64,000 nt of DNA from a virus: the IMG/VR virus record IMGVR_UViG_3300029787_004704, positions 43,869 to 107,868 of that record; one strand, given 5' to 3'. The translations under genes were made by a program, and so were the position numbers. Position 1 is the stretch's first letter; every line of letters begins with the position of its first letter. The notes beneath the pieces are model-generated. The model was not told the DNA's origin. It did not search any database and was given only the letters and a program-made list of their open reading frames with translations. Positions 310 through 46,846 of this stretch are shown here, one piece after another.

Positions 310-942
310 CTATATATAGAAGTTTCTGTTGGACGTTAATGATTCTTGATTGTTCACTTTGACTGCTCTTGGAGTCACCACTTGTATGTTACAGTATAGA
401 TCTTTCACAAACATGTCAGCGGCAGTCAGACCTTCTTCATATGCTCCACGTATTAACCGTTCAGCAGTTTTTGGTTTGATTACGTATCCATAGGTGCCTT
501 GTAATTGTTGTTGTCCTTTGCGATAATGTTCTAGTTTTTGTATGCTAGGTTCTTGTCCTAGATCAGGATCAGGCTCGACAAATCGGTGTTTGTCCAAATG
601 TAGTAGTTCATCAAACGGTGTTTTGTATGAGTCTGATACCACAATAGAATCGTGTTCAAGTATGACCACTGTTTCATCTAGTTCAACACATTTTTTCCAC
701 ATTTCCAAATGTGAAATCATGCATCCTCTGACACCACCTTTATTCCATTTTATTTTGTATAACTTTGGCCCGGGAAAATATGGTTGTAAATTTTCTCGTT
801 TGATATATTCATCTGCACGTGAAGGTGTGTACCCTTCAAACATCTCAGCGTCTAGGCCATGTGCTTTAGCACTGACCATTGCGTCAATAGCTGGTTGATG
901 TGTGCTTTCAACTTCTCTTAAAAATAATACAAACGCTTTCAT
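310..942 (-). CDS. Glycosyltransferase family 25-like protein
   Basis: GCMISHLEMWKKC...VILEHD and GTYGYVI motifs typical of GT25. Confidence 0.8.
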   Translation of the reverse strand: MKAFVLFLREVESTHQPAIDAMVSAKAHGLDAEMFEGYTPSRADEYIKRENLQPYFPGPKLYKIKWNKGGVRGCMISHLEMWKKCVELDETVVILEHDSIVVSDSYKTPFDELLHLDKHRFVEPDPDLGQEPSIQKLEHYRKGQQQLQGTYGYVIKPKTAERLIRGAYEEGLTAADMFVKDLYCNIQVVTPRAVKVNNQESLTSNRNFYI

Positions 943-1352
943 TTTTTGATAACGGACCCATGTACTCTTACTCTTATGTGGCCGTTGTAGTAATCATCTG
1001 ATTCAAGTACACCTCTAGCAAACTGTTCTTTTGCTTCAAGATAATTGCATTCGCCTTTAGATTTGCATAGATGAATTATTTCTCTTTTGAATTTTTCTTT
1101 GCCTAGTTTGTTTACATCTTCGATCAGCAAGTCACTCGAACCATAATAATCTTGCCAGTCACTTTCTACTGTGTGTCTGCGTTTATTTTTTCTGCCTTTG
1201 AGAGGTGGTCTTGACCTTTTGAATTTTGCCAATTTCTTCCCCACGTACATTCTACCTGTTGTGGTGTTGGTTATGAGATATACAAATCCCACTACACCGT
1301 CTGGTAATGTTTCTACTAGTTCTCCTTGATATGTCCAATTGACTTTTGTCAT
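939..1352 (-). CDS. GIY-YIG family (Seg-like) nuclease
   Basis: GFVYLITN...MYVGKK, YYGSS and a conserved YN near the C-terminus. Confidence 0.8.
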   Translation of the reverse strand: MTKVNWTYQGELVETLPDGVVGFVYLITNTTTGRMYVGKKLAKFKRSRPPLKGRKNKRRHTVESDWQDYYGSSDLLIEDVNKLGKEKFKREIIHLCKSKGECNYLEAKEQFARGVLESDDYYNGHIRVRVHGSVIKK

Positions 1353-2086: not shown

Positions 2087-2175
2087 TTTATCTCCTTTTT
2101 GCTATTGCATACTATTTGCAATACGTTATTCATAAGAAAAGGAAACACAAGGTTTCCTTCTTACTGCTACTTATA

Positions 2176-2853
2176 TTAGAATGTTATCTTAAAGTCAATA
2201 TCTTTTTGTATTGCCGAATTGTATGCATCTTTATCATCACTCCACCCTGATCCAGTCCACCATTCAAATCCAGGAATGGATGCTTTCCATTTGCATGACT
2301 TGTCGTAACTGGCTCCTAGATAGAACCATTCATAACCTAGTTCATGTGCATGATGTATTTCGTGCCACAGACTGTATTTGCCCAGTTGCAGTTTGAAGTC
2401 AGCATAGTTCCACGCCATTTGCCAGTTGTCTAGACTGTTGATATACGTGGTCCATATGGAGAATCCTATAAGATCATTTTTCAATCTGTACAACCACACA
2501 GTGTCTGCATGACCAATATCCTCCAGTGGGTTTGGTTCCAACATGGTGTAACCGTGATGATCAAGATATGCTTCATATATCGGCATCAATTGAGGCATCA
2601 TTAATTTTGCTTCTAGACCATAAATTTTTTCAGCAATTATGTCAGGATCAGTTTTTGGTTTCTTTGCTTTTTTTATAAATCTGTCTATGTTGATTCTAAC
2701 AGCACGAACTTGTTGCCATGCATCTTCTAATTGTATAAAACCTTGTGCCAATGCTTCGTCTGATTCTTGGGGGTGTACGTCTGCCCACACTTTCATGAAC
2801 TGTATGTCTTGTTGATCTAGTTTGCCAAATAAATGTTCATACCAAATTTTCAT
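2176..2853 (-). CDS. Bpt/ATE1-like aminoacyl-tRNA-protein transferase (GNAT fold)
   Basis: C-terminal LGKYSLWHEIHHAHELGYEWFYLGASYDKSCKWKA resembles the ATE_C signature (LGxxsil.EI..A...g..y.YLGy....c.kM.YK); likely start MKIWYE at 2853. Confidence 0.65.
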   Translation of the reverse strand: MKIWYEHLFGKLDQQDIQFMKVWADVHPQESDEALAQGFIQLEDAWQQVRAVRINIDRFIKKAKKPKTDPDIIAEKIYGLEAKLMMPQLMPIYEAYLDHHGYTMLEPNPLEDIGHADTVWLYRLKNDLIGFSIWTTYINSLDNWQMAWNYADFKLQLGKYSLWHEIHHAHELGYEWFYLGASYDKSCKWKASIPGFEWWTGSGWSDDKDAYNSAIQKDIDFKITF

Positions 2854-2870
2854 GTGTAAGTATCCTGTAT

Positions 2871-3218
2871 ATGGATATCTATCACATTTTTGCAGATCAT
2901 CACCCTGAAGTGGATTCTTATGAATTCGCTGACAAGATGAGATCATTTTTAGATGGCATGGTGAGTTTAGGAAAAATGCAAAATTACAGATTAACCAGAG
3001 CCAAACTAGGCTTCCGTTCTATGGACCTTCCAGAGTTTCATGTCATGATGGAATTTGTAAACATGCAACAACTGGATGATGCTATGACTTCTGTGTTACG
3101 CAACGAAAAAAGTATTGATGAAAAACATGTCAACTTCAATCAATTGGTTGATAGTGAAACCATACAACATTTTCTATATAGAGACTTTCCGGATCAGATC
3201 GACGACAGCAAATCTTAG
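2871..3218 (+). CDS. DUF6614-like hypothetical protein
   Basis: MDIYHI...YRLTRAKLGF...EFHVMMEF..MQQLDDA pattern; divergent from the transferase gene. Confidence 0.6.
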   Translation: MDIYHIFADHHPEVDSYEFADKMRSFLDGMVSLGKMQNYRLTRAKLGFRSMDLPEFHVMMEFVNMQQLDDAMTSVLRNEKSIDEKHVNFNQLVDSETIQHFLYRDFPDQIDDSKS

Positions 3219-3234
3219 GTCGGTATAATATAGT

Positions 3235-3565
3235 TGTGCAAGGCAATCAAGGCACTTCAAAAAAATCTTAGGCAACATAACGTCTCCGAACACAGCGAAC
3301 TACTCTGTAACAACAGCGGCGAATCGCTTGACGTCCAATATTCATACGGTATCTACGTTTACCACCGCGTAGTATAAAAAAAGCGAGACCATAGGTTGGT
3401 ATAATCCTCCGTTGCAACAATGTCTCTGGATGCTTGGCTGTGCGACTCACATCAAGAAAAACATTCACCTGGCAACAGGTGGATACTGACTTAACAATCT
3501 ACATCAAGCAACGGCATTATAAAATGCTCGAGTGCAAACGAAGAGCGATTGACGTAGTCAATCTT
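3235..3565 (+). ncRNA. Candidate structured non-coding RNA (or structured origin)
   Basis: ~345-bp gap in a gene-dense genome; TATAAT at 3224-3229; multiple helices including a GCAA tetraloop stem at 3463-3484; long-range pairings; terminal hairpin at 3547-3563. Confidence 0.55.
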
Positions 3566-3792
3566 TACTTGTTGTCCACTTTGTGAGCATCATAGTCATG
3601 CATGAAATCATTTAATGTTATGTCCGCACGTCTTAGATCAGTGTGTTTTTCAAAAAAGTCAAACAGCAAATTAGCACACTCTTTGGGAGAATGTGTCATC
3701 AGCATCTTTTGTAGGACGTAGTTGGTTTTGTTTCTGCGTTGTTCAGTGTTCAACACCGCATGTTTGGGAACAGGAGCAAAGTTGTTCTTCAT
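3565..3792 (-). CDS. Hypothetical protein
   Basis: 75-aa ORF in line with the upstream minus-strand genes. Confidence 0.55.
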   Translation of the reverse strand: MKNNFAPVPKHAVLNTEQRRNKTNYVLQKMLMTHSPKECANLLFDFFEKHTDLRRADITLNDFMHDYDAHKVDNK

Positions 3793-3834
3793 AGTAGTAG
3801 CTATATTAACTGTGTTCCCTATTAAGTTATAGTA

Positions 3835-4275
3835 TTAAAATTTTATTTTCTGCTTGGCAAACTGTTTGCCAAAACCACCGCCTTTTAGACCCTTTTTCTT
3901 GAACTCTTTTTCTTTGGCGTTTATCTGGTCAATCATTTGTGCTATTAGTCCACGCACATATTTTGAATTAGGCTTGCCCCCTTGCACAATTTTGTCTGGT
4001 TCAACATTTAAGCCAAAACTTTTGATACCTGCTTTTTTAGCCACTCCTTCGGCCCAATCAGCAAAAAATGGAGCTATTGCTAGGTCTGGATTGTCGTTCA
4101 ATGCTTTGTTTAATTTAGAGTTAAGATCGTTCAGCATGGTTTCCATGTCTTGTAGTTTTGCTGTAAGTGGAATAGGGCCTTTTAGCGAATCTGCGGCTTG
4201 CCCAATGCCTTGTGCGGCAGTGCCTAACGCGGCACCAACTTTGGGGTCATATTCAAATAGGTCTAAAAGTTTCAT
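3835..4275 (-). CDS. Hypothetical protein, possible internal head protein
   Basis: Preceded by TATAAATA late promoter; N-terminus MKLLDLFE resembles a cleavable capsid-targeting sequence. Confidence 0.65.
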   Translation of the reverse strand: MKLLDLFEYDPKVGAALGTAAQGIGQAADSLKGPIPLTAKLQDMETMLNDLNSKLNKALNDNPDLAIAPFFADWAEGVAKKAGIKSFGLNVEPDKIVQGGKPNSKYVRGLIAQMIDQINAKEKEFKKKGLKGGGFGKQFAKQKIKF

Positions 4276-4288: not shown

Positions 4289-4514
4289 GTAAAGGCAGTT
4301 TAGTGTTCTTTGTGTTCTCTATGTTCTGTTTTACAAGTTCAGCCATCATGGATCTGTCTTCAGGCCCTAGCAAAAATGCTGTGTTGTAATCCAACGACCC
4401 ACGCATGTACCAACACAATTTAATAAGTTCATCCTTTAAATTTTTGTTTGTGTTTTCAAGTTCTTTAAAATATTCTTCAAGTTCAGAAGGCGAGAGAGTT
4501 AGGATCTTGATACG
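4284..4514 (-). CDS. gp51-like / frameshift extension of gp26 (76 codons, -1 frame)
   Basis: Open frame RIKILTLSPSELEEYFKELE...LCWYMRGSLDY...LPLL*; entered by a -1 slip at TTTTTTC (4514-4520); the first ATG is 36 codons in. Confidence 0.6.
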   Translation of the reverse strand, partial: RIKILTLSPSELEEYFKELENTNKNLKDELIKLCWYMRGSLDYNTAFLLGPEDRSMMAELVKQNIENTKNTKLPLL

Positions 4515-5362
4515 AAAAAATTGGAGTTATCCATTGATATAGGAGCGTCAAACGACGCTGGAGCACCTTTTTCTATTTGTTCCTTTGTTGGTGTAATAGT
4601 AATAGGTTTAATTCTGCCTAAATCTTTTTGTACATCTAATCTTTTTTTAATTTTGTCGGCAGTGGCACCATCCATGTTGTCCACAAATTCTTCAATGTAA
4701 ACACGATCAGTGATAGTTTGTCCATCAGCTGTGACCTCCAAAATAGATTCTTTCATGTTAGCCAAAGTTAAGTTGGTCATATGGCCAAATATTTCAGCAA
4801 ATTTTTCCTGTTTTTGTGATGCATTTAATTCATTGGTATCAATGACTTGTGTTATAATTCTTTGTTGTTCAAAGGTGCGTAATTGTAAGTTTGTGAGTTG
4901 ACGATAACTCATTGGCTTTATTTTGAAAGACACTTTGTCTGCAGGCACATATCCATCAAATGGTGTCTTGTCAATTTTATCTCCTGCTGTACGCAAATCA
5001 ACATTGTAGACTACTTTGTCTTCTGTGTTGGGAATAGTCACATTGATATCCATCATGTGGCCATAAGTTGCAATACGTATAGCAATCATTATGGAGTCTA
5101 AATCTAACACCGGCATCATCCATGGATCTTTGATTCCTGGCACACATGAACGTATGACATTTATTGTTGATTCTCCGTTTAACAGTGCGTCTGGTGTATT
5201 CATGGTCATTTCATCTTTAGCAGTCATAGGATATACTGCAAGTTCTTTTTCGTTGTCAAATACTAAAGCTCCTTCAGGATACCAATCACCATTAGATGGC
5301 AGAGTTGTGTATATTGCTGGTTGCCTAAAGAACTTTGCTAAAGGGTTTTGTGAAGTTGTCAT
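4499..5362 (-). CDS. T4 gp26-like baseplate hub / tape-measure chaperone
   Basis: LPSNG...VYPMTAKDE...DLDSIMIAIRIATYG motifs; ends in NFF. Confidence 0.75.
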   Translation of the reverse strand: MTTSQNPLAKFFRQPAIYTTLPSNGDWYPEGALVFDNEKELAVYPMTAKDEMTMNTPDALLNGESTINVIRSCVPGIKDPWMMPVLDLDSIMIAIRIATYGHMMDINVTIPNTEDKVVYNVDLRTAGDKIDKTPFDGYVPADKVSFKIKPMSYRQLTNLQLRTFEQQRIITQVIDTNELNASQKQEKFAEIFGHMTNLTLANMKESILEVTADGQTITDRVYIEEFVDNMDGATADKIKKRLDVQKDLGRIKPITITPTKEQIEKGAPASFDAPISMDNSNFFVSRS

Positions 5363-16726: not shown

Positions 16727-19700
16727 ATGACCAAACAACGTATTCAAATAGGTGCTATTAACTCTGGATCCGGCGATACCTTAAGAGCCGCGATGATAAA
16801 AATCAATAACAACTTTGATGAGTTGTATGATTTACAGGGACAAGACTCTAGTGGTCAGGGCATTGATATAAATGGAAACACAATCACATCAAATTTTGAA
16901 GACACTGACATAACATTATCACCAAACGGCACAGGTGACATTGTAATGGATGGTGATCTTGTTGTTACTGTTATAAAATCAGATGATTCTACAGAAGTTA
17001 AAATAAGTGATTCATTGAACGTCACAGGCACAGTGACAGCAACAGCATTTGTTGGTGATGGATCAGGACTTACAGGAGTAAGTGGTAGTGGTGGTGGCGG
17101 CGGTGACTCTACAGAAGTTTACACAAATATTTTAAGATCAAATGACTCCACTGCTATCCAAGTTGCAGACAATTTAGTACCAACAGCAGATGACACTTTC
17201 AGTTTAGGTACAGCAGACAAAAAATGGTCAGCAGTGCATGTTTCCGGAGGCACTATATTCTTAGGAAACTTACAGATCAAAGATTCAGGATCAAATTCAT
17301 TACAAATTTTAAGGTCAGACGGGTCTACTACGGCGGCAGTTGAATCTACAAGCACAACATTGAATGTTGTAGGTGATGACTCCACTGACATGGAAATTGT
17401 AGTTGGCACAGATAGATTACATTTCCAAGGTGGCACAAACATTGAAACATCCACAGACAGTGGTGCACAACTTACAATATCTACAAGTAACACTCCAACA
17501 TTCAGTGGCACAGTCACAGCAGGTGGATTAACAATTGGATCAGCAGTAATTAATGAAGCAGAACTAGAAACTATTGATGGTGTCACAGCAGGCACTGTGG
17601 CAGCTTCCAAAGCAGTGATTGTTGATGCCAACAAAGACGCGGCATCATTTAGAAACATTACTGCCACTGGTGCAGTAACAGGTGGCTCTTTTGTAATTGG
17701 ATCTGCAGACATTAGTGAAGCAGATCTAGAAAAACTAGATGGAATAACAAATGGAACTGCCGCGGCAAATAAAGCAATAGTAGCTGATGGCAACATTGAT
17801 GTTACTGCAATTAGAAATCTTACACTAACAGGAAACATACAGGTTGGTGGCGACATGACTGTGAGTGGCACAACTACATCAGTCAACACAACAAATTTAG
17901 AAATATCAGATGCACTATTAGAACTAAACAAAAATAACTCAGGTGGTGCAGATACTGATGCTGGACTATTAATACAAAGAGGATCTGCAGGCAACAATGC
18001 CGCGTTTTATTGGAATGAAGGTGCTGACAAATTCAAAGCAGTATTAACCACATCGGCAGCCACAGCAAGTGCAGTCACTGACTCAAGCACAGCAACCATT
18101 GTTGCAAATCTTGAAGGAGCAGTAACAGGCAATGCCGACACAGCAACAGCTTTAGCCACAGCAAGGAATATTGGTGGTGTTAGTTTTGACGGTACTGGAA
18201 ATATAAATTTACCTGGTGTAAACACTGCCGGTGACCAAGACACAAGTGGAACTGCCGCAATAGCAACTAAGATTATAGTAACTGATAACGAAAGTACAAA
18301 TGAAAATAATGTAATTTTGTTTGCGTCTAGCGTAGGTGATTCGAGTACTGCAAGTGGAAGTGGCGTAGAATCTGATGGTAACATGACATACAATCCCAGC
18401 ACAGGCAAAATCACTGCTACTGGATTTATAGGTGCTGTAACTGGTGATGTTACAGGTGATGTTACAGGTAATGCCGACACAGCAACAGCTTTAGCCACAG
18501 CAAGAACAATAGGTGGTGTGTCATTTGATGGCACAGGAAATATTAACTTGCCAGGAGTTAACACTGCTGGTAACCAAAATACAAGTGGAACAGCCGCGAT
18601 AGCAACCCTTGTAACAGTAACTGACAACGAAAACACAAATGAAGAAAATGTTGTTACATTCGTTGCTGGTGCAGATGCAGATGGTGGCAATGTTGGCCTT
18701 GAGTCAGATGGAAACTTTACATATAATCCAAGCACAGGGGCAGTAACAGCAACAAAATTCAAAGGTGATGGATCAGAACTTACTGGAATAAGCGGTGGTG
18801 GTGGATCAAGCACATTGAACGTTGTTGGTGATGATTCAACTGACATGGAAATTACGCTTGGAACAGATAGATTATATTTCCAAGGTGGCACAAATATTTC
18901 AACGTCAACAGACAGTGGGGCACAACTAACAATTACTGTTGCTGATGCTCCAACATTTAGTGGTGCAGTCACTGCCGCTGGATTTACAATAGGCAGTGCC
19001 GCTATTAACGAATCGGAACTTGAAACAATTGATGGTGTCACAGCAGGTACTGTGGCCGCAAGTAAAGCTGTCGTAGTTGACTCGAACAAAGATGCAACAG
19101 GATTTAGAAACGTTACAGGCACAGGAGATGTCGAAGGTGCAAGTTTAACTGTTACAAGTGGCGTTGCCATTACAGCATCAAGTGGCGATGTTACTGTTGC
19201 GAATGCAACATCAAATAAAGATTTAATATTCACAGTAAATGATGGTGGCTCTGCTACTGAGGTAATGAGATTAGATGGTGATGTGTCAGCATTATTAGTG
19301 GCGTCTGGGAAAGAATTGAGATTTGCAGACTCCGGAGAAAAAATATCAGGTGACGGCACTGACTTAACCATTGCATCAGGAGCCAAAATAAACCTAACAG
19401 CAACATCGGATGTTGTTGTTCCAGCTAACGTAGGAATTACATTTGGCACTGGCGAAAAAATTGAAGGCGACAACACAGACTTAACTATTACTTCAGGTGC
19501 TAAAATTAATTTGGCAGCTACTTCAGATGTACATATTCCAAATGATGTTGGTATTGTGTTTGGTGGAGATTCAGAAAAAATTGAAGGAGATGGAACGGAC
19601 TTAGTCATATCTGCAAATAATTTAACAGTTGACGCGGCCGCTGATATAATTTTAGACGCAGGTGGCAATGACTTCCAATTCAAAGCAGGTGGCACTCACA

Positions 19701-22700
19701 TATTAAGCATTGTGAATTCATCTAGTGATGTCATAATCAAACCTATCGCTGATGCAAAAGATATAATATTGCAACAAAGAGATGGCACAGAAGTTGCTCG
19801 CGTTGAAGACAACGGAACATTCAATATTGTCACAGACAAATTAGCAATAAATGGCACAGCGGTTACATCAACTGCCGCAGAGTTAAATTTTGTTGATGGC
19901 AGTACAGCAGGCACTGTGGTGGCATCTAAAGCAGTGGTTGTCGATTCAAACAAAGATGCTGGAGACTTCCGTAACTTAACTGGAGTAACTTTAAAAGGAA
20001 CAACTTCATTACAAACACCATTGATTGAATTCACTGATGGCGACAATGCAATTACTATTGCAAATGGAGGTGGTATTACTGCTAATACAAGTTTAACATT
20101 GGCAAGTGGTGCAACTGTTACAGCAATACTTGATGAAGATAATTTTGCATCAGATTCTGACACTGCATTGGCAACACAACAATCAATCAAAGCATACGTT
20201 GGATCACAAACAGGATCATCAATCAGTATGAGAGTTGCTGGTTCATCAGATTCAACACAGGCAAACATTGATTTATCAAGCAATGAAGAATTCAGATTAA
20301 TTGGTGGCAACAGTATTACAACAACCATAGGTAGCACTGCTGACAACACAATGACTGTGGCACTGGATGATAATATTGCAATAGATGAACTCAGTGCTAA
20401 AGATTCATCGAATATCCAAATTAAATCACCTATACTTGCTGACAGTACAATAACTTCAGGAGCAATCACATCTTCAGGTGTTGTCACAGCAACTGGATTT
20501 ACTATTGGATCTGCCGCAATAAATGAAACAGAACTAGAAACTATCGATGGCATCACAGCAGGTACAGTTGCCGCGTCGAAGGCGGTCATTGTAGATTCAA
20601 ATAAAGATGTTACTGGTTTTAGAAATGTTACCGGCACAGGTGATGTTGAAGGTGCAAGTTTAACAGTTTCAAGTGGTGTGGCAATAACTGCATCAAGCGG
20701 TGATGTCACAGTTGCTAACGCAACTTCAGACAAAGATTTAATATTCACGGTTAATGATGGTGGCTCGGCTACTGAAGTGTTTAGACTTGATGGTGATGTA
20801 TCAGCTATGTTGATAGCATCAGGAAAAGAATTAAGATTTGCTGACTCAGGAGAAAAAATATCAAGTGATGGTACAGACTTAACTATCGCATCCGGTGCCA
20901 AAATTAATCTAGGAGCAACATCAGATGTTCATTTAGCCAACGATATTGGATTGGTGTTTGGTGATGCTGGTGAAAAAATTGAAGGTGATGGTACGGACTT
21001 AACCATTACAGGTAACAATATTAAATTGACTGCCACAGCAGATGTAGTGATACCGGCCAACGTTGGAATCACGTTTGGTACAGGAGAAAAAATTGAAGGT
21101 GACAGCACAGACTTAACTGTGACTTCAGGTGGGAAGATAAATTTAACAGCAACATCAGATGTTCATATTCCAAATGATGTTGGTATTGTGTTTGGTGATG
21201 CGGCAGAAAAAATTGAAGGTGACGGAACAGACTTAACCATAACAGGAAACAATATTAAATTAACTGCCGCGGCTGATATTGTTGTGCCGGCTAATGTTGG
21301 AATTACATTTGGCACCGGCGAGAAAATTGAAGGCGATAGTACAGATTTAACTGTCACATCCGGAGCAAAAATTAATCTTAATGCAACTTCTGATATTCAC
21401 ATTCCAAATGATGTTGGTATTGTATTTGGTGGCGCATCGGAAAAAATTGAAGGTGATGGCACAGACCTAGTCATATCAGCAAACAACTTGACTGTAGATG
21501 CCGCGGCCGACATAATACTTGATGCAGGTGGCAATGACTTCCAATTTAAAGCAGGCGGAACGCATATATTAAGTGTAGTGAATTCGTCAAGTGACGTAAT
21601 AATTAAACCAATTGCTGACGCAAAAGATATCATATTCCAACAAAGAGATGGCACAGAAGTTGCAAGGGTAGAAGATAATGCAACATTCAATGTTGTAACT
21701 GGTAAACTGGCAATTAATGGCACAGCAATTACATCAACGGCCGCTGAACTTAACCTAGTTGACGGCATCACAGCAGGAACAGTATCTGCCAGTAAGGCAG
21801 TAATTGCTGACTCTAATAAAGATGCATTAGGATTTAGAAATATTTCAGCAACGGGTACCGCTGAGATAGGCGGTGATTTACAAGTTGGCGGAAACTTCAC
21901 AGTATCTGGAACAACTACATCAGTTAATACAACCAACATAGAAATCCAAGACGCATTGTTAGAATTAAACAAAAATAACTCAGGTGGTGCTGATGTTGAT
22001 GCTGGAATATTCATACAACGTGGTTCGGCAGGTAACAATGCAGTATTATATTGGAATGAAGGAGATGACACATTTAAAGCAGTGTTGTCCAACTCAGTTG
22101 CAACTGCTGACGCAGTAACAGATTCGTCTTTTGCAGGATTAGAAGTAGGATCGCTCACTGTAAACGCTGGAGTGGCAATCACAGCATCGAGTGGTGATGT
22201 TACTGTTGCTAATGCAACATCAAATAAAGATTTAATATTCACTGTAAATGATGGTGGTTCAGCAACAGAAGTAATGAGACTAGATGGAGATGTATCGGCT
22301 ATACTAGTTGCATCAGGAAAAGAATTAAGATTTGCTGACTCAGGAGAAAAAATATCAGGTGATGGTACAGACTTAACCATTGCATCAGGGGCTAAAATTA
22401 ATTTATCAGCAACTTCAGATGTTGTTATACCAGCAAACGTAGGAATAACATTTGGTGATGGTGAAAAAATTGAAGGTGATGACACAAACATTACAGTCAC
22501 TTCAGGTGGCGCAATCAACTTAACTGCAACAACAGATGTTGTTGTACCTGCCAATGTTGGAATTACATTTGGTACAGGTGAAAAGATTGAAGGCGACAAC
22601 ACAGACTTAACTGTGACTTCAGGTGCTAAAATTGTATTAGCGGCAACAAGTGATGTTGAAATACCAGCAAATGTAGGAATAACATTTGGTACAGGAGAAA

Positions 22701-25700
22701 AAATTGAAGGTGACAATACAGACTTAACTATCACGTCGGGTGCTGACATAACCTTGGCGGCAACAGCAGATGTTAACATACCAGTCAATGTTGGCCTACG
22801 TCTAGGTGATGGTGGTGAGAATATCGAAACAGATAACACAGATTTAACAATTACTTCAGGTGGAAAAATTAATTTAGCAACTGCTTCAGATGTACACTTA
22901 GCCAACGATAAAGGAATAGTGTTTGGTGATGCCGGTGAGAAAATTGAAGGTGATGGCACCGACTTAACTATATCGTCAAGTGCAAAATTAAATTTAACAG
23001 CATCATCAGATGTACACATTCCAAAAAACATAGGATTAGTTTTTGATGATAATGCTAGTGAAAAAATTGAATCAGATGATACAGATTTAACTATTGCATC
23101 AGGTGCCAAAATTAATTTAAATGCAACTTCAGATGTTCACATTCCAAATGATGTAGGAATAGTATTTGGCGGTGCTTCTGAAAAAATTGAAGGTGATGGA
23201 ACTGACTTAGTCATATCAGCTAACAACTTGACTGTTGATGCGGCAGCTGATATTATACTTGACGCTGGTGGCAATGACCTTCAATTTAAAGCAGGTGGCA
23301 CACATGTCTTGAGTATTACAAATTCATCCAGTGATGTTATCATTAAACCAATTGTAGATGCAAAAGATATTATATTCCAGCAAAGAGATGGAACAGAGGT
23401 TGCTCGTATTGAAGACAATGCAACATTTAATGTTGTCACAGGCAAGTTAGCAATCAATGGCACAGCAATTACATCAACTGCCGCTGAACTAAATGCACTA
23501 GATGGCATTACTGCTGTTGTTGGTGAACTTAATGCTCTGGATATAGGTAGTACCGCTGTTGGAACTGCTGTTGCATCTAAGGCAGTGATACTAGATTCAA
23601 ATAAAGATTATACTGGCATAAGAAACTTAACTACAACTGGTTCATTCATAATTGGTAATGCGGACATGAATGAAACTGATCTAGAAAAACTAGATGGTAT
23701 CACAAACGGAACTGTGGCAGCTAACAAAGCAGTTGTTGTTGATGGTGACAAAGACGCTGGTTCATTTAGAAATATTACAGCAACAGGTACAGTAACCACA
23801 GCAATACTGGATGTAAACTCAATTAAATCAACTGATTCATCTAACATACGTATTGATGAAGGCCTTGATGTAGTAGGTGGATTATTCCTTTCAGAAATAA
23901 ATTCAATAGATTCAAGTGCAATTGAAGTAAATGAAGTTACTAATTTCAATGCAAACGTAGTTGTCAAAGCAGATGTAACAACAACTGGTTCATTTATTAT
24001 TGGCTCAGCGTCAATGAATGAAACTGATTTAGAAAAATTAGATGGCATTACAAATGGTGCTGGTGCGGCAAACAAAGCATTGGTGTTAGATGGAAGTGCT
24101 GATGTGGCATCTGGCTTAAGAAACTTAACAGCAAGTGGCACTATTACAGGTGGCACAATCACATTAGATGGAGGATTTTCGGCAACAGAATCAAGTGGTG
24201 ATGTCACAGTTGCTAATGCAACATCAAACAAAGATTTAATATTCACTGTAAACGACGGTGGCTCTGCTACTGAAGTGTTTAGACTTGATGGTGATGTGTC
24301 AGCACTACTAGTTGCGTCTGGGAAAGAATTGAGATTTGCTGATTCAGGCGAAAAAATATCAGGTGATGGCACAGATTTAACTATTGCATCAGGAGCCAAA
24401 ATTAATTTAACTGCCACTTCAGATGTTGTTGTACCAGCAAACGTAGGAATAACATTTGGTACAGGTGAGAAGATTGAAGGTGATAACACTGATCTTACAA
24501 TAACATCAGGTGCAAAAATTAATTTAGCCGCAACATCAGATGTTCACATTCCAAATGATGTTGGTATTGTGTTTGGTGGTGATTCAGAAAAGATCGAAGG
24601 TGATGGCACTGACTTAGTCATATCAGCAAATAACCTCACAGTGGATGCCGCGGCTGACATTATACTTGATGCCGGTGGCAATGACTTCCAATTCAAAGCA
24701 GGCGGCACTCACATATTAAGTGTAGTAAACTCATCCAGTGATGTTATTATTAAACCAATTGTAGATGCAAAAGATATTATATTCCAACAGAGAGATGGAA
24801 CAGAAGTTGCTCGTGTAGAAGACAATGGTACGTTCAATGTTGTTACCAGCAAGTTAGCAATAAACGGTACAGCAATTACTTCAACGGCCGCTGAACTAAA
24901 TGCACTAGATGGCATTACTGCTGTTGTTGGCGAACTTAATGCACTAGACCTTGGCAGCACAGCAGTTGGAACTGCTATTGCATCCAAAGCTGTTATTTTA
25001 GATTCAAACAAAGATTATACTGGGTTAAGAAACGTCACACTATCAGGTGAACTTGATGCAGGAAGTTTAGATATATCAGGTGATGCTGACATAGACGGTA
25101 CTTTAGAAACAGACGCATTAACAATTGGCGGCACTGCTATCGCAGATGTAATTGCAGGAACCACAGTCAACCTTGCCACACTAGCGTCAACTGTCACTAT
25201 TACAGACAACGAATCAACCAATGAAAACAATGCTTTAGTCTTTACTGCCGGCGGCGATACAGATGGTGGTAACCTTGGATTAGAATCAGATGGTACATGT
25301 ACATACAATCCAAGCACAGGTAAAATAACTGCCACAGGATTTGTAGGTGACTTAACAGGAACGGCATCTGCCGCTCAATACTCTGACTTGGCAGAACGTT
25401 ATCATGCTGATGCTGTGATGGAAAAAGGTGACATTGTTGAGATAGGTGGCGAAAATGAAATTACTAAGTCTACACAAGCAGTAAGTCCAGATGTGTTTGG
25501 TGTAATATCTCATGAGGATCAAGCGGCATTTAAAATGAATGACGGACTTCCTGATGATACTCACCCACTAGTGGCACTAACTGGAAGAGCAGATGTAAAA
25601 GTGATAGGACCAATCAACAAAGGCGACAGACTTGTCACATCATCTACACCAGGCGTTGCACGTAAGGCATTGATGTCTGAATGCACAGCATTTACAGTAA

Positions 25701-25774
25701 TTGGTAGAGCGTTACAAGATAAAACAACAGAAGATATTAGCGTTGTTTTATGTTATGTGAACGCAAAATCTTAA
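16727..25774 (+). CDS. Giant repetitive tail fibre with C-terminal intramolecular-chaperone (peptidase G2-like) domain
   Basis: N-terminal GDTLRAAMIKINNNFDELY baseplate-attachment motif; about 20 EKIEGDGTDL repeats; C-terminal AQYSDLAERY...VALTGR...KGDRLVTS. Confidence 0.85.
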   Translation: MTKQRIQIGAINSGSGDTLRAAMIKINNNFDELYDLQGQDSSGQGIDINGNTITSNFEDTDITLSPNGTGDIVMDGDLVVTVIKSDDSTEVKISDSLNVTGTVTATAFVGDGSGLTGVSGSGGGGGDSTEVYTNILRSNDSTAIQVADNLVPTADDTFSLGTADKKWSAVHVSGGTIFLGNLQIKDSGSNSLQILRSDGSTTAAVESTSTTLNVVGDDSTDMEIVVGTDRLHFQGGTNIETSTDSGAQLTISTSNTPTFSGTVTAGGLTIGSAVINEAELETIDGVTAGTVAASKAVIVDANKDAASFRNITATGAVTGGSFVIGSADISEADLEKLDGITNGTAAANKAIVADGNIDVTAIRNLTLTGNIQVGGDMTVSGTTTSVNTTNLEISDALLELNKNNSGGADTDAGLLIQRGSAGNNAAFYWNEGADKFKAVLTTSAATASAVTDSSTATIVANLEGAVTGNADTATALATARNIGGVSFDGTGNINLPGVNTAGDQDTSGTAAIATKIIVTDNESTNENNVILFASSVGDSSTASGSGVESDGNMTYNPSTGKITATGFIGAVTGDVTGDVTGNADTATALATARTIGGVSFDGTGNINLPGVNTAGNQNTSGTAAIATLVTVTDNENTNEENVVTFVAGADADGGNVGLESDGNFTYNPSTGAVTATKFKGDGSELTGISGGGGSSTLNVVGDDSTDMEITLGTDRLYFQGGTNISTSTDSGAQLTITVADAPTFSGAVTAAGFTIGSAAINESELETIDGVTAGTVAASKAVVVDSNKDATGFRNVTGTGDVEGASLTVTSGVAITASSGDVTVANATSNKDLIFTVNDGGSATEVMRLDGDVSALLVASGKELRFADSGEKISGDGTDLTIASGAKINLTATSDVVVPANVGITFGTGEKIEGDNTDLTITSGAKINLAATSDVHIPNDVGIVFGGDSEKIEGDGTDLVISANNLTVDAAADIILDAGGNDFQFKAGGTHILSIVNSSSDVIIKPIADAKDIILQQRDGTEVARVEDNGTFNIVTDKLAINGTAVTSTAAELNFVDGSTAGTVVASKAVVVDSNKDAGDFRNLTGVTLKGTTSLQTPLIEFTDGDNAITIANGGGITANTSLTLASGATVTAILDEDNFASDSDTALATQQSIKAYVGSQTGSSISMRVAGSSDSTQANIDLSSNEEFRLIGGNSITTTIGSTADNTMTVALDDNIAIDELSAKDSSNIQIKSPILADSTITSGAITSSGVVTATGFTIGSAAINETELETIDGITAGTVAASKAVIVDSNKDVTGFRNVTGTGDVEGASLTVSSGVAITASSGDVTVANATSDKDLIFTVNDGGSATEVFRLDGDVSAMLIASGKELRFADSGEKISSDGTDLTIASGAKINLGATSDVHLANDIGLVFGDAGEKIEGDGTDLTITGNNIKLTATADVVIPANVGITFGTGEKIEGDSTDLTVTSGGKINLTATSDVHIPNDVGIVFGDAAEKIEGDGTDLTITGNNIKLTAAADIVVPANVGITFGTGEKIEGDSTDLTVTSGAKINLNATSDIHIPNDVGIVFGGASEKIEGDGTDLVISANNLTVDAAADIILDAGGNDFQFKAGGTHILSVVNSSSDVIIKPIADAKDIIFQQRDGTEVARVEDNATFNVVTGKLAINGTAITSTAAELNLVDGITAGTVSASKAVIADSNKDALGFRNISATGTAEIGGDLQVGGNFTVSGTTTSVNTTNIEIQDALLELNKNNSGGADVDAGIFIQRGSAGNNAVLYWNEGDDTFKAVLSNSVATADAVTDSSFAGLEVGSLTVNAGVAITASSGDVTVANATSNKDLIFTVNDGGSATEVMRLDGDVSAILVASGKELRFADSGEKISGDGTDLTIASGAKINLSATSDVVIPANVGITFGDGEKIEGDDTNITVTSGGAINLTATTDVVVPANVGITFGTGEKIEGDNTDLTVTSGAKIVLAATSDVEIPANVGITFGTGEKIEGDNTDLTITSGADITLAATADVNIPVNVGLRLGDGGENIETDNTDLTITSGGKINLATASDVHLANDKGIVFGDAGEKIEGDGTDLTISSSAKLNLTASSDVHIPKNIGLVFDDNASEKIESDDTDLTIASGAKINLNATSDVHIPNDVGIVFGGASEKIEGDGTDLVISANNLTVDAAADIILDAGGNDLQFKAGGTHVLSITNSSSDVIIKPIVDAKDIIFQQRDGTEVARIEDNATFNVVTGKLAINGTAITSTAAELNALDGITAVVGELNALDIGSTAVGTAVASKAVILDSNKDYTGIRNLTTTGSFIIGNADMNETDLEKLDGITNGTVAANKAVVVDGDKDAGSFRNITATGTVTTAILDVNSIKSTDSSNIRIDEGLDVVGGLFLSEINSIDSSAIEVNEVTNFNANVVVKADVTTTGSFIIGSASMNETDLEKLDGITNGAGAANKALVLDGSADVASGLRNLTASGTITGGTITLDGGFSATESSGDVTVANATSNKDLIFTVNDGGSATEVFRLDGDVSALLVASGKELRFADSGEKISGDGTDLTIASGAKINLTATSDVVVPANVGITFGTGEKIEGDNTDLTITSGAKINLAATSDVHIPNDVGIVFGGDSEKIEGDGTDLVISANNLTVDAAADIILDAGGNDFQFKAGGTHILSVVNSSSDVIIKPIVDAKDIIFQQRDGTEVARVEDNGTFNVVTSKLAINGTAITSTAAELNALDGITAVVGELNALDLGSTAVGTAIASKAVILDSNKDYTGLRNVTLSGELDAGSLDISGDADIDGTLETDALTIGGTAIADVIAGTTVNLATLASTVTITDNESTNENNALVFTAGGDTDGGNLGLESDGTCTYNPSTGKITATGFVGDLTGTASAAQYSDLAERYHADAVMEKGDIVEIGGENEITKSTQAVSPDVFGVISHEDQAAFKMNDGLPDDTHPLVALTGRADVKVIGPINKGDRLVTSSTPGVARKALMSECTAFTVIGRALQDKTTEDISVVLCYVNAKS
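19180..25030 (+). repeat. Four nested coding repeat super-modules in the fibre gene
   Basis: Each starts SSGDVTVANATS.KDLIFTVNDGG and ends DIIFQQRDGTEVAR, containing 3, 6, 8 and 3 copies of a ~37-38-aa unit. Confidence 0.85.
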
Positions 25775-45646: not shown

Positions 45647-46160
45647 AGAAGTACATTTAGAAACTGACTTTGATTTTATATTGTCGCAAGATTATGATAC
45701 TCATTATGGATCTTGCATATCACACCAAGTGCATGAATTGAAAGATATACATGACAGATTTGGCGGAATGCCCGACACTTATGATCAAAACAATACGCAA
45801 ATAAGTCAACTATGGTTTGAAGATGGACAATTAGATTTTACTGACATTAGTAAACAACTAGGAATAGATATTGTAACAGTAAGTGCAATTAGATTAAAAC
45901 CAGGTAACACTATTCCTTTGCATAGAGACACATTTTACAAAATTAAAACGCAGTTTCCAGACGATGAACGAGCAAGAGTACGAGCAAACATAAACTTGGA
46001 AACATGGAAAACTGGACACATTATTCAATACAATGACAAAGTTATTACTGGATGGAAACAAGGTGATGGACATCTTTGGGATTCAGGAATAGAACATCTA
46101 GGAGCAAACTGTGGCATGGAATCAAAATACAGTTTGCAAGTTTCCGGATTTTTACTGTAA
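45633..46160 (+). CDS. 2OG-Fe(II)/cupin oxygenase-like protein
   Basis: PGNTIPLHRD...H.GAN...LQV HxD...H triad. Confidence 0.7.
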   Translation: MPIYKEVHLETDFDFILSQDYDTHYGSCISHQVHELKDIHDRFGGMPDTYDQNNTQISQLWFEDGQLDFTDISKQLGIDIVTVSAIRLKPGNTIPLHRDTFYKIKTQFPDDERARVRANINLETWKTGHIIQYNDKVITGWKQGDGHLWDSGIEHLGANCGMESKYSLQVSGFLL

Positions 46161-46820
46161 AAATTTTAATCTTTTTGACAAATCTGGGTAATAAGATTTT
46201 GCCGGACTAAGCACATCACCATTGTGTTTTGGCAACTTATCCATCAGCAATATTCCTAAAGCACAATCTTCCGGAATCATGTTGTAATGATATCCTGTAC
46301 GTCTGAAAACAGGTTGAGCAGTCCATTTATTCCATAGAGAATAATCACGGCCATCATGCCTTGATGCAATTAACCAGTCATACAGATCAACATTGTCGGT
46401 TAGTATTGCACCGCCTTTGCCTATTTTTAATTGTTTTTGATATTGAAAACTGCAACACATATCATAACCATCATTATACATACCGGAAGTAAATCTAGTT
46501 GCCGCATCTATGATAGAAGTATCGCCTAATTGGTATGTGCCACTCCAATTTACATCTGACCATGCAAACGGAATATTAAGATTATACAAAGTCATAGGTA
46601 CACTTACATAGGTGTTTTTAGGACATGTCATTTGCATTGGTATTCCTTGTTCTAAATAATAACGTAAACAAAGTTCTAATGCATGAGTGTTTGAATCTAC
46701 GACAACACACATAGGAGCATTAGTATAGGAACATATTTTCCGTTCAAACATATGGATTATGTCAAACGGATCTTCGAAAGTATATCCTGCTTTTATGAGT
46801 TGATCTAGTTCAGTACGCAC
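46152..46820 (-). CDS. DegT/DnrJ/EryC1/StrS PLP aminotransferase (short form)
   Basis: DSNTHAL, IIDAA, SFQYQKQL..GKGGAILT, GYHYNM. Confidence 0.85.
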   Translation of the reverse strand: MRTELDQLIKAGYTFEDPFDIIHMFERKICSYTNAPMCVVVDSNTHALELCLRYYLEQGIPMQMTCPKNTYVSVPMTLYNLNIPFAWSDVNWSGTYQLGDTSIIDAATRFTSGMYNDGYDMCCSFQYQKQLKIGKGGAILTDNVDLYDWLIASRHDGRDYSLWNKWTAQPVFRRTGYHYNMIPEDCALGILLMDKLPKHNGDVLSPAKSYYPDLSKRLKFLQ

Positions 46821-46846
46821 AAAATTAATTATTCATAATTACAAGC

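What the first reader, a model, noticed from the sequence alone, without database searches (positions are those of the whole stretch)
3219..3565. ~330-nt intergenic region with nested and pseudoknotted pairings: candidate novel structured RNA
Seen: this is the only large gap in a gene-dense window and is GC-richer than its flanks, with TATAAT at 3224-3229. Helices: ACGTC 3280-84/GACGT 3330-34 enclosing two hairpins (ACAG/CTGT; AGCGG-CGAA-TCGCT); GAGAC 3385-89/GTCTC 3422-26; TAGGTTG 3392-98/CAATCTA 3495-3501; CCGTTGC 3409-15/GCAACGG 3508-14; CTTG..TGTG/CACA.CAAG 3433-56; ATTCACCTG-GCAA-CAGGTGGAT 3463-84 (GNRA loop); terminal GATTGAC-GTA-GTCAATC 3547-63. ACATCAAG is duplicated (3449, 3501). The G-U pairs and GNRA loop favour an RNA on the + strand. 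It does not match tRNA, tmRNA or RNase P hallmarks that I can recognise. Inference: a ribozyme, regulatory or scaffold RNA, or a replication-priming RNA.
Basis: partly seen in the sequence, partly recalled or inferred. Interest (0 to 1): 0.75.

Follow-up and report, generated by a model that had tools for sequence, protein, structure and literature searches.

The report
Twin-box structured RNA of jumbo phages
The gene-free 330 bases encode a real, heavily folded non-coding RNA, a stripped-down member of a large RNA family of uncultured aquatic giant phages. Only one branch of that family is partly catalogued (the orphan motif Polynucleobacter-1), and its function is still unknown.

Summary
Window 3219-3565 lies between convergent genes and encodes a + strand structured RNA, about 3236-3566.

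- **Family size:** more than 150 relatives were fetched from marine and freshwater viral and metagenome contigs.
- **Structure support:** 36 base pairs in seven helices are 94-98% paired in relatives, against 28-50% when the partners are slid. There are many compensatory changes, and G·U outnumbers A·C 60:19.
four are confirmed, two hairpins were mis-paired, and two long-range helices are unsupported.
- **Twin boxes:** the duplicated ACATCAAG is a family hallmark. Two identical boxes flank one hairpin, 12 box types occur in 55 RNAs, and no internal complement exists.
- **Known families:** no Rfam family matches the window. My model of the 3' domain does hit RNAs whose 5' third is Rfam Polynucleobacter-1 (RF01718), so this is a new variant of a half-described orphan.
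- **Window form:** it is minimal, lacking the central pseudoknot domain.
- **Gene linkage:** a domain-only SegE-like GIY-YIG gene lies directly beside the RNA in most relatives (62 of 80 loci), at its 5' side where both RNA domains were mapped, and 1.9 kb upstream here.
- **Function:** open. My best guess is a trans-acting RNA whose boxes are read by base pairing, possibly with that nuclease. Rivals are an RNA-primed origin and an independent scaffold.

The scan has found this family before on other DNA.

The parts
3202..3229 (+). Promoter-like site: ACGACA, 16-nt spacer, TATAAT (-10 at 3224-3229). Predicted start is near G3236.
   Evidence: The scan scores it 10 of 12. A TATA-rich -10 sits at the same distance from the conserved 5' end in all groups. 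Full TTGACC/TTGACT-17-TATAAT promoters occur in other family members.
3236..3566 (+). Predicted RNA gene of about 330 nt, the minimal form of the twin-box family.
   Evidence: Conserved from the promoter to the terminal hairpin in relatives. R1 scores 80 bits and R2 104 bits on the window. No ORF is conserved.
3241..3274 (+). Single-stranded leader with three AGGCA repeats (3241-45, 3250-54, 3270-74).
   Evidence: AGGC occurs 3.75 times per first 170 nt in 55 relatives, against 0.57 after shuffling. The repeats are visible.
3280..3334 (+). 5' stalk. P1 is 3280-84/3330-34, P2 is 3294-98/3324-28, and P3 is 3305-08/3313-16 (plus C3303-G3318). Between P2 and P3 lies the near-invariant internal loop ACUA (3299-3302) / GCGAA (3319-23).
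   Evidence: In one search, 97.9% of cells are paired against 28-50% when slid. The covariation score is 0.478 against 0.158, reached by 0 of 500 shuffles. Pair 39-71 of the alignment shows all four Watson-Crick types. add the extra pairs and loop variants.
3353..3372 (+). P4 hairpin CUACG/CGUAG.
   Evidence: A hairpin sits at the same place with a different sequence in every group: GGAGUC/GACUCC, GGAG/CUCC, GUGG/CCAC, GACAG/CUGUC. It also appears in the constrained fold.
3385..3426 (+). Long-range helix GAGAC 3385-89 / GUCUC 3422-26. In larger relatives this pairing is a pseudoknot between a hairpin loop and a downstream strand.
   Evidence: One search shows at least 15 distinct compensated versions, with a mean run of 7.3 against 4.7 shuffled. 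One search gives covariation 2.63 over three columns.
3392..3405 (+). Second copy of TAGGTYGGTATAAT, inside the segment that replaces the central pseudoknot domain of larger relatives. It is specific to the window's own lineage.
   Evidence: There are two exact copies in the window. The second is absent from the sister group and all other groups.
3433..3456 (+). Box 1 (ACAUCAAG, 3449-56), held in a lineage-specific hairpin with CUUGGCUGUG 3433-42.
3463..3484 (+). P9 hairpin AUUCACCUG-GCAA-CAGGUGGAU, lying between the two boxes.
   Evidence: In one search, 94.4% of cells are paired and 7 of 9 pairs change on both sides, with many G·U pairs.
3501..3508 (+). Box 2 (ACAUCAAG), identical to box 1.
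   Evidence: The two boxes are identical within each RNA, and 12 box types occur in 55 RNAs. The rule also holds in RNAs found through the nuclease gene.
3526..3546 (+). P11 hairpin: GCUC/GAGC, then tandem G·A, then GU/AC closing a GCAA tetraloop. It resembles a kink-turn or loop-E motif.
   Evidence: In one search all 6 pairs change on both sides, and cells are 95-100% paired.
3547..3563 (+). P12 terminal hairpin GAUUGAC-GUA-GUCAAUC. It is the likely 3' end and a weak two-way terminator, abutting the stop codon of the 75-aa gene.
   Evidence: One search shows covariation in the distal pairs. The terminator scan flags it on both strands. The U-rich tail is not conserved in other groups.
939..1352 (-). 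SegE-like GIY-YIG nuclease gene, 137 aa, catalytic domain only. It is the usual neighbour of this RNA family.
   Evidence: Pfam PF19835 at E = 6e-38. It lies directly beside the RNA in most relatives, at its 5' side where mapped. Here three genes lie between it and the RNA.

Best explanation
**Shown.** The gap is a stand-alone gene for a + strand, multi-helix non-coding RNA of about 330 nt. It belongs to a large family of uncultured aquatic jumbo or T4-like phages.

**Shown by comparison.** The RNA has these parts:
- a leader with AGGCA repeats;
- a three-helix stalk with a near-invariant internal loop;
- a long-range helix;
- a 3' module in which two identical boxes flank hairpin P9;
- a GNRA-capped hairpin with tandem G·A;
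- a terminal hairpin.

**Inferred.** It is transcribed early by the host polymerase from its own sigma-70-like promoter and acts in trans. Within each RNA the boxes stay letter-identical, while they change quickly between lineages. No complement to them is found inside the RNA. They are therefore most likely read by base pairing with two copies, or two sites, of an outside nucleic acid.

**Inferred, about even odds.** It works with the domain-only SegE-like GIY-YIG nuclease whose gene sits next to the RNA gene in most relatives, as a specificity or scaffold subunit or as its regulator.

Identity as a real structured RNA of this family: about 0.95. The mechanism as a whole: about 0.35-0.4.
For: - **Family:** the exact-motif scan found 42 viral and at least 120 metagenome contigs. 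All viral hits align. Most metagenome hits carry the family's flanks, and a minority are chance matches.
- **5' helices:** 97.9% of cells paired, covariation 0.478 against 0.158, reached by 0 of 500 shuffles.
- **3' helices:** 94.2% of cells paired, 17 of 22 pairs changed on both sides.
- **Long-range helix:**
- **Strand:** G·U 60 against A·C 19, and the promoters lie on the same strand.
- **Twin boxes:** identical within each RNA, 12 types, also in RNAs found through the protein. No internal complement exists.
- **Nuclease linkage:** of 80 loci chosen only by GIY-YIG homology, 62 carry the RNA's 3' domain within about 3.5 kb. The nuclease gene faces either way (17 divergent, 45 co-directional). 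The RNA keeps its orientation to the baseplate-hub gene in all 31 of these loci where that gene was found.
- **Nuclease conservation:** the protein is 60-75% identical across marine and freshwater lineages and lacks a DNA-binding domain.
Weinberg 2010 already recorded Polynucleobacter-1 RNAs downstream of the homologous gene family (PSSM2_218-like), including in a bacterium.
Against: - No transcript evidence of use was obtained. Only two low-depth RNA-library contigs touch the 3' end, and they carry no strand information.
- The nuclease family is far wider than the RNA: 785 cultured phage records. P-SSM2 and Melnitz have the gene without the RNA beside it.
- In the window the two genes are 1.9 kb apart with three genes between them. 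In 4 of 15 RNA loci with at least 4 kb of upstream sequence, no GIY-YIG gene lies within 4 kb.
- Adjacency could be inherited gene order.
- No target for the boxes was found.
- Boxes of 7-10 nt are short for a guide.
Confidence: 0.38

Rival explanations
1. The RNA works on its own as a scaffold or sponge, for example by binding a protein through the AGGCA repeats and the conserved internal loop. The GIY-YIG gene is beside it only through inherited gene order, or because a Seg-type homing endonuclease targets and inserts next to a highly conserved RNA gene.
For: - AGGC repeats are enriched 6.6-fold in the 5' part.
- The nuclease family exists without the RNA in hundreds of cultured phages.
- The nuclease gene occurs in both orientations beside an RNA whose place relative to the hub gene is fixed, as expected of independent insertions.
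- In the window it lies 1.9 kb away.
- From general knowledge: T4 seg genes sit next to conserved genes such as the tRNA cluster.
Against: - The protein has no DNA-binding domain and is under strong purifying selection, 60-75% identity across habitats. That is unlike decaying selfish endonuclease genes.
- Adjacency is reported even in a bacterial genome.
- The twin boxes are left unexplained.
Confidence: 0.3
2. The RNA is the primer and organiser of a replication origin. An early host-polymerase transcript folds, forms an R-loop near its 3' hairpins, and is processed to prime leading-strand synthesis, as in T4 oriE/oriF/oriG or ColE1 RNA II. The twin boxes would then act as iteron-like sites.
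For: - The RNA lies in the 2-kb bin with the global minimum of cumulative GC skew of the whole 108-kb contig. It is 1.8 kb from the only major switch of gene orientation.
- It has its own sigma-70-like promoter.
- It contains direct repeats flanking an inverted repeat.
- Cultured relatives have unannotated gaps of 0.7-1 kb at the same map position, next to endonuclease VII, resolvase or RNase H genes.
- From general knowledge: T4 oriE combines an early non-coding transcript with iterons.
Against: - The skew minimum follows gene orientation, which flips at 5362/5413 and not at the RNA.
- Conserved pseudoknots, loops and G·U-rich helices go beyond what a primer needs.
- No AT-rich unwinding element follows, since the next bases are coding.
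- The gaps in the cultured relatives show no homology to either RNA model.
Confidence: 0.2
3. This is not an RNA gene. It is small ORFs, or only a two-way terminator and regulatory DNA between convergent genes.
For: - ORFs of 47, 66 and 50 codons exist in the gap.
- The terminal hairpin scores as a terminator on both strands.
- The single-sequence fold z-score is only -1.74.
Against: - ORFs differ in frame, place and length in every group, and some members have only one ORF of 35-37 codons.
- Compensatory changes occur in seven helices over 330 nt.
- G·U outnumbers A·C by 60 to 19, about 3:1.
Confidence: 0.03

Closest known systems
Polynucleobacter-1 RNA motif (Rfam RF01718; Weinberg et al. 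2010, PMC2864571)
   Same: RNAs that carry RF01718 as their 5' third have a 3' domain that my model R2, built from the window's family, hits at E of 1e-14 to 1e-15 in the same transcript unit (L305, L334, L306). The flanks of the published seed sequences show the same twin boxes, the GAGCG..AAGCGAA hairpin, a terminal hairpin with a GUA loop and the ACAGC..AACCGCCC pseudoknot strand. The neighbour gene family is the same (PSSM2_218-like, the SegE-like GIY-YIG). Function is unknown for both.
   Different: The RF01718 model does not match the window, the whole contig or freshwater members of this branch, even at E of 10 or below. The 5' domain has a different build: a P1-P2-P3 stalk with an ACUA/GCGAA loop. 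The window's group also lacks the central pseudoknot domain and the P5 hairpin. The nuclease gene is divergent rather than upstream on the same strand. The catalogued motif covers only about 140 nt and was filed as possibly cis-regulatory.
GOLLD and ROOL large ornate RNAs (Rfam; cryo-EM in 10.1101/2024.12.08.627333)
   Same: These are also large, pseudoknotted non-coding RNAs of unknown function that are typical of phages and prophages and were found by comparative analysis.
   Different: There is no model match. This RNA is smaller, at 330-460 nt. It has twin boxes and a nuclease-gene neighbour instead of tRNA neighbours. Multimer formation was not tested.
Nuclease-associated guide RNAs (HEARO/omega-RNA of IscB, TnpB reRNA, IS110 bridge RNA)
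   Same: A structured RNA gene abuts a small nuclease gene, and short variable single-stranded segments are set in a conserved scaffold. This is an analogy of working principle only.
   Different: The nuclease here is GIY-YIG, which is not known to be RNA-guided. The variable segments are duplicated and only 7-10 nt long. No target was found. The nuclease family mostly occurs without the RNA. There is no Rfam HEARO match.
Origin primer RNAs (T4 oriE RNA with iterons; ColE1 RNA II), from general knowledge
   Same: An early transcript made by the host polymerase, non-coding and structured, with direct repeats nearby, lying at a skew minimum.
   Different: No unwinding element, RNase H site or R-loop evidence is at hand. 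The conservation pattern is that of a folded functional RNA.

Membership tests
Polynucleobacter-1 (Rfam RF01718) | Match to the RF01718 covariance model at or above its 37-bit gathering score. | tested here: not met
   No hit in the window at the gathering score, none at E of 10 or below in 3100-3700, and none in the whole 108-kb contig at E of 10 or below. Freshwater members of this branch also fail.
Polynucleobacter-1 (Rfam RF01718) | Lies downstream, on the same strand, of a GOS11034/PSSM2_218-like gene (Weinberg 2010 supplement). | tested here: not met
   In the window the homologous gene (939-1352) is on the opposite strand and 1.9 kb upstream. Co-directional adjacency holds for 45 other loci.
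Polynucleobacter-1 (Rfam RF01718) | Shares the uncatalogued 3' extension of RF01718-bearing RNAs. | tested here: met
   R2 hits L305, L334 and L306 about 200 nt downstream of their RF01718 matches, and hits the window at 104 bits.
Twin-box phage RNA superfamily (working name of this scan; not in any public database) | Two identical boxes of 7-10 nt flanking hairpin P9. | tested here: met
   ACATCAAG at 3449-56 and 3501-08. Boxes are identical within each RNA in 55 RNAs, with 12 types. The same holds in the RNAs found through the nuclease gene.
Twin-box phage RNA superfamily (working name of this scan; not in any public database) | The 3' hairpins P9, P11 (tandem G·A plus GNRA) and P12, with covariation. 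| tested here: met
   94.2% of cells paired, 17 of 22 pairs changed on both sides.
Twin-box phage RNA superfamily (working name of this scan; not in any public database) | Long-range pairing between the region after P4 and the strand 5' of box 1. | tested here: met
   The window's version is 3385-89/3422-26.
Twin-box phage RNA superfamily (working name of this scan; not in any public database) | Central H-type pseudoknot domain (GUUGU/ACAAC crossing CGGG/CCCG) and the P5 hairpin. | tested here: not met
   This domain is deleted in the window's group and its sister group and replaced by about 32 nt at 3390-3421. The window is a minimal form.
Twin-box phage RNA superfamily (working name of this scan; not in any public database) | A SegE-like GIY-YIG gene immediately 5' of the RNA gene. 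| tested here: inconclusive
   The gene is present but lies 1.9 kb away with three genes between. Directly adjacent examples include L042/L044; within 4 kb in 11 of 15 loci with 4 kb upstream.
tRNA / tmRNA | Cloverleaf, or a tRNA-like domain with a tag frame. | tested here: not met
   ARAGORN finds none in the window. The contig has one tRNA-Thr, elsewhere.
GOLLD, ROOL, HEARO, group I/II introns, RNase P, 6S and all other Rfam 15 families | Covariance-model match. | tested here: not met
RNA-primed replication origin | An R-loop or RNA-DNA junction, an unwinding element, and a replication start at the site. | not testable with these tools
   Only the position at the skew minimum could be shown.

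The most novel reading that the evidence does not exclude
The RNA is the targeting subunit of an RNA-guided GIY-YIG nuclease. The two identical boxes displayed on either side of P9 base-pair with a nucleic-acid target, and the domain-only SegE-like protein, which has no DNA-binding domain of its own, does the cutting. This would be the first RNA-programmed member of the GIY-YIG superfamily.
Probability: 0.06. Interest if true: 0.95.

Novelty: new variant of a known kind. Interest (0 to 1): 0.6.

Why it matters
**Scale of the family.** This is one of the most widespread large structured RNAs of uncultured aquatic jumbo and T4-like phages, found on hundreds of contigs, and nobody knows what it does. 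The public record holds only a 140-nt fragment of one branch.

**What the window adds.** The window carries the smallest natural version. That version defines the core that selection keeps:
- the stalk with the ACUA/GCGAA loop;
- one long-range helix;
- the twin-box/P9 module;
- the tandem-G·A hairpin;
- the terminal hairpin.

It is therefore the easiest construct for structure probing, cryo-EM and binding tests.

**What the boxes imply.** Two boxes that change together yet pair with nothing inside the RNA point to an outside reader. The steady neighbourhood of a nuclease lacking its own DNA-binding part makes an RNA-protein partnership directly testable.

Tried and rejected
**Database and isolate searches**
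- Rfam at the gathering score and at E of 10 or below gave nothing relevant.
- blastn against cultured phages gave no match.
- Models R1 and R2 found nothing in Phosso, PA5oct, Atu_ph07 or 121Q, nor in Melnitz or P-SSM2. Each of the first four has an unannotated gap at the same map position.
- The four published PA5oct ncRNAs lie elsewhere in that genome.
- PADLOC and solved structures added nothing for the neighbour proteins.

**Pattern scans that failed**
- 17 of the 18 motif hits in bacterial genomes are chance matches in high-GC coding DNA. One 2-kb MAG contig (L083) is a true member, probably phage DNA binned with the MAG.
- The pattern AGCGAAACCGCCCTT gave 75 chance matches and no family member.
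- A pattern taken from the RF01718 seed sequences gave no match.

**Ideas about the sequence itself**
- The second TAGGTTGGTATAAT is not an internal promoter, because it is not conserved outside the window's own lineage.
- The box 10-mer is not enriched in the genome. It has 17 near-matches against 5.5 in shuffles, but 15% of the genome's own 10-mers do as well.
- No conserved internal complement to the boxes exists.
- Box copies in flanking DNA occur only in one lineage's coding sequence.
- Box similarity to the terminal hairpin strand holds in one freshwater subgroup only (by eye).
- Small ORFs are not conserved.

**Expression**
- Two oligo-dT RNA libraries gave single low-depth contigs touching 3526-3698 and the flanking genes. 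Two metatranscriptomes gave nothing.
- These were contigs only, without strand or end information, so there is no verdict on transcription.

Full report
**Setting.** The window is bases 43869-107868 of a 107.9-kb IMG/VR virus record that CheckV rates 26% complete. Its portal protein is closest to those of the jumbo phages Phosso, PA5oct, Atu_ph07 and 121Q, at 46-54% identity. The finding lies between convergent ORFs: 2871-3218 (+), a DUF6614 protein, and 3565-3792 (-), a 75-aa protein. A T4 gp26-like baseplate hub gene (4499-5362, -) and the head module follow.

- The gap, the TATAAT at 3224-29 and a modest GC rise (0.43-0.44 against about 0.37) are as described.
- Taken alone, the sequence folds only slightly better than shuffles: z = -1.74 on +, with 7 of 100 shuffles as good, and +0.25 on -.
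- ARAGORN and Rfam find nothing, even at E of 10 or below.

**Relatives.** The flanking DUF6614 gene led to 14 related viral contigs, nine of which keep the gap. Two conserved strings in that alignment, GAACTACTC and GCGGCGAATC, were used as an exact pattern.
- All viral hits align. Most metagenome hits carry the family's flanks, and a minority are chance matches in high-GC coding DNA.
- The 18 hits in bacterial genomes are chance matches in high-GC coding DNA. The exception is one 2-kb MAG contig, probably phage DNA binned with the MAG.
- After removing near-duplicates, 57 full-length sequences remained.

**Structure, 5' part.** On alignment A2 the three helices are P1 3280-84/3330-34, P2 3294-97/3325-28 and P3 3305-08/3313-16.
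- They are paired in 97.9% of cells, against 28-50% when the partners are slid.
- The covariation score is 0.478 against 0.158, reached by 0 of 500 shuffles.
- Single pairs show up to four Watson-Crick types.
- A column-pair scan adds A3298-U3324 to P2. A variant seen supports C3303-G3318.
- This leaves a near-invariant internal loop, ACUA opposite GCGAA.

**Structure, 3' part.** On alignment A3 the helices are P9 (3463-71/3476-84), P11 (3526-29/3543-46 with inner 3532-33/3538-39, tandem G·A and a GCAA loop) and P12 (3547-53/3557-63).
- They are 94.2% paired against 28-36% when slid, and 17 of 22 pairs change on both sides.
In larger relatives it joins the loop of a hairpin (P5) to a downstream strand.
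- Larger relatives also carry a central H-type pseudoknot: GUUGU/ACAAC crossing CGGG/CCCG, both covarying.
- The window's group and its sister group have lost P5 and that domain, so the window holds a minimal form.
- TAGGTTG/CAATCTA and CCGTTGC/GCAACGG are not conserved in the sister group and stay unsupported.

**Strand and transcription.**
- In the supported helices G·U cells outnumber A·C cells 60 to 19.
- Every group has a TATA-rich -10 at a fixed distance from the conserved 5' end, and some have full TTGACC-17-TATAAT promoters.
- No ORF is kept across groups.
- Public RNA libraries gave only two low-depth contigs touching the 3' end, so transcription is not shown.

**Twin boxes.**
- The ACATCAAG duplication is general. 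In each of 55 RNAs the same 7-10 nt stand on both sides of P9, with 12 different box sequences across the family.
- The rule also holds in RNAs retrieved through the neighbouring protein gene.
- Aligned, the boxes read mostly A-N-NNN-A, with an invariant A after a variable triplet: AUG, GUG, AUC, AUA, CAC or GUA.
- No position inside the RNA carries a matching complement.
- The box is not enriched in the genome once codon bias is allowed for.
- Flank matches are confined to one lineage.
- AGGC repeats in the leader are enriched 6.6-fold.

**Relation to what is known.** Earlier notes of this scan pointed to Rfam Polynucleobacter-1, and I tested that lead.
- RF01718 does not match the window, the contig or freshwater members of this branch.
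- Model R2, built from the window's family 3' domain, hits 62 of the 80 loci. In 17 the RNA is divergent from the nuclease gene, and these also hit R1. In 45 it lies directly behind the gene on the same strand.
- Among 20 of the latter, three carry RF01718 about 200 nt upstream of the R2 match.
- The 2010 seed alignment shows the same twin boxes, tandem-G·A hairpin and terminal hairpin in its unannotated flanks. Its authors noted the PSSM2_218-like neighbour gene, which is this GIY-YIG family.
- The window's RNA is therefore a new 5'-domain variant, in minimal form, of a superfamily of which only one branch's first third is catalogued.

**Linkage to the nuclease.**
- The RNA keeps its orientation to the hub gene, while the nuclease gene next to it faces either way.
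- From the RNA side, 11 of 15 loci with 4 kb of upstream sequence have the gene within that distance.
- In the window three genes (DUF6875-like, ATE_C-like GNAT, DUF6614) lie between the two.
- The protein family is much wider than the RNA: 785 cultured phage records. P-SSM2 and Melnitz have the gene without the RNA.
- This fits a partnership that only some phages have, but it also fits mere gene order or homing next to a conserved RNA gene.

**Origin reading.** Over the whole contig the cumulative GC skew has its global minimum in the 2-kb bin that holds the RNA. At finer scale the minimum is broad and follows the switch of gene orientation at 5362/5413. Cultured relatives have unannotated gaps at the same map position, but without homology. 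This keeps the origin idea alive without favouring it.

**Verdict.** This is a real structured RNA (about 0.95), a new variant of a half-known orphan family. Function is unknown. The best-supported mechanism is a trans-acting RNA read through its twin boxes, possibly together with the GIY-YIG nuclease (about 0.38). The rivals are an independent scaffold or sponge (0.30) and an RNA-primed origin (0.20).

Noticed in passing
G000 contig 46001-48000 (window about 2100-4100): The cumulative GC skew of the whole 108-kb contig has a clean V-shaped global minimum here. Genes are mostly on the - strand to the left and on the + strand to the right of 5362/5413.
   Followed up: partly
L210:3773-4608 (121Q); L208:3306-3968 (PA5oct); L209:892-1880 (Atu_ph07); L207:9127-10140 (Phosso): Each cultured jumbo relative has an unannotated gap of 0.7-1 kb at the same map position, upstream of the hub and portal genes and next to endonuclease VII, resolvase or RNase H genes. 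None gives a match to R1, R2 or Rfam.
   Followed up: partly
window 3449-3456 and 3501-3508; alignments A3 and A5: Aligned across the family, the twin boxes read mostly A-N-NNN-A, with an invariant A after a variable triplet. AUG is commonest, then GUG, AUC, AUA, CAC and GUA. This recalls a codon followed by a purine, as in T-box specifier loops, but it is untested.
   Followed up: partly
window 3487-3491; A3 columns 13-18 and 78-83: In larger relatives a second, conserved direct repeat UGACUG(C) stands 5' of each box. The window keeps only the second copy.
   Followed up: no
window 939-1352 (-); L368:2977-3414 (P-SSM2 PSSM2_218): Homologues of this SegE-like GIY-YIG domain protein are labelled 'NAD synthetase' in many phage records and in PHROG 447, which looks like a propagated misannotation.
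   Followed up: partly
window 2176-2946 (-) and 2871-3218 (+): The ATE_C-like GNAT gene and the DUF6614 gene overlap by 76 nt at their 5' ends on opposite strands as called, so the true starts may be internal. In relatives these two genes and a DUF6875-like gene move as a block to either side of the RNA.
   Followed up: no
window 3216-3229 and 3392-3405: TAGGTYGGTATAAT occurs twice, 176 nt apart. The second copy has an extended -10 (TGGTATAAT) but is confined to the window's own lineage.
   Followed up: yes
window 16727-25774 (+): A single ORF of 3015 codons lies in the structural region.
   Followed up: no
L346:2775-3581: One locus has the window-type 5' domain (R1, 72 bits) directly behind the nuclease gene on the same strand. 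The type of 5' domain and the gene orientation are therefore not strictly tied.
   Followed up: partly
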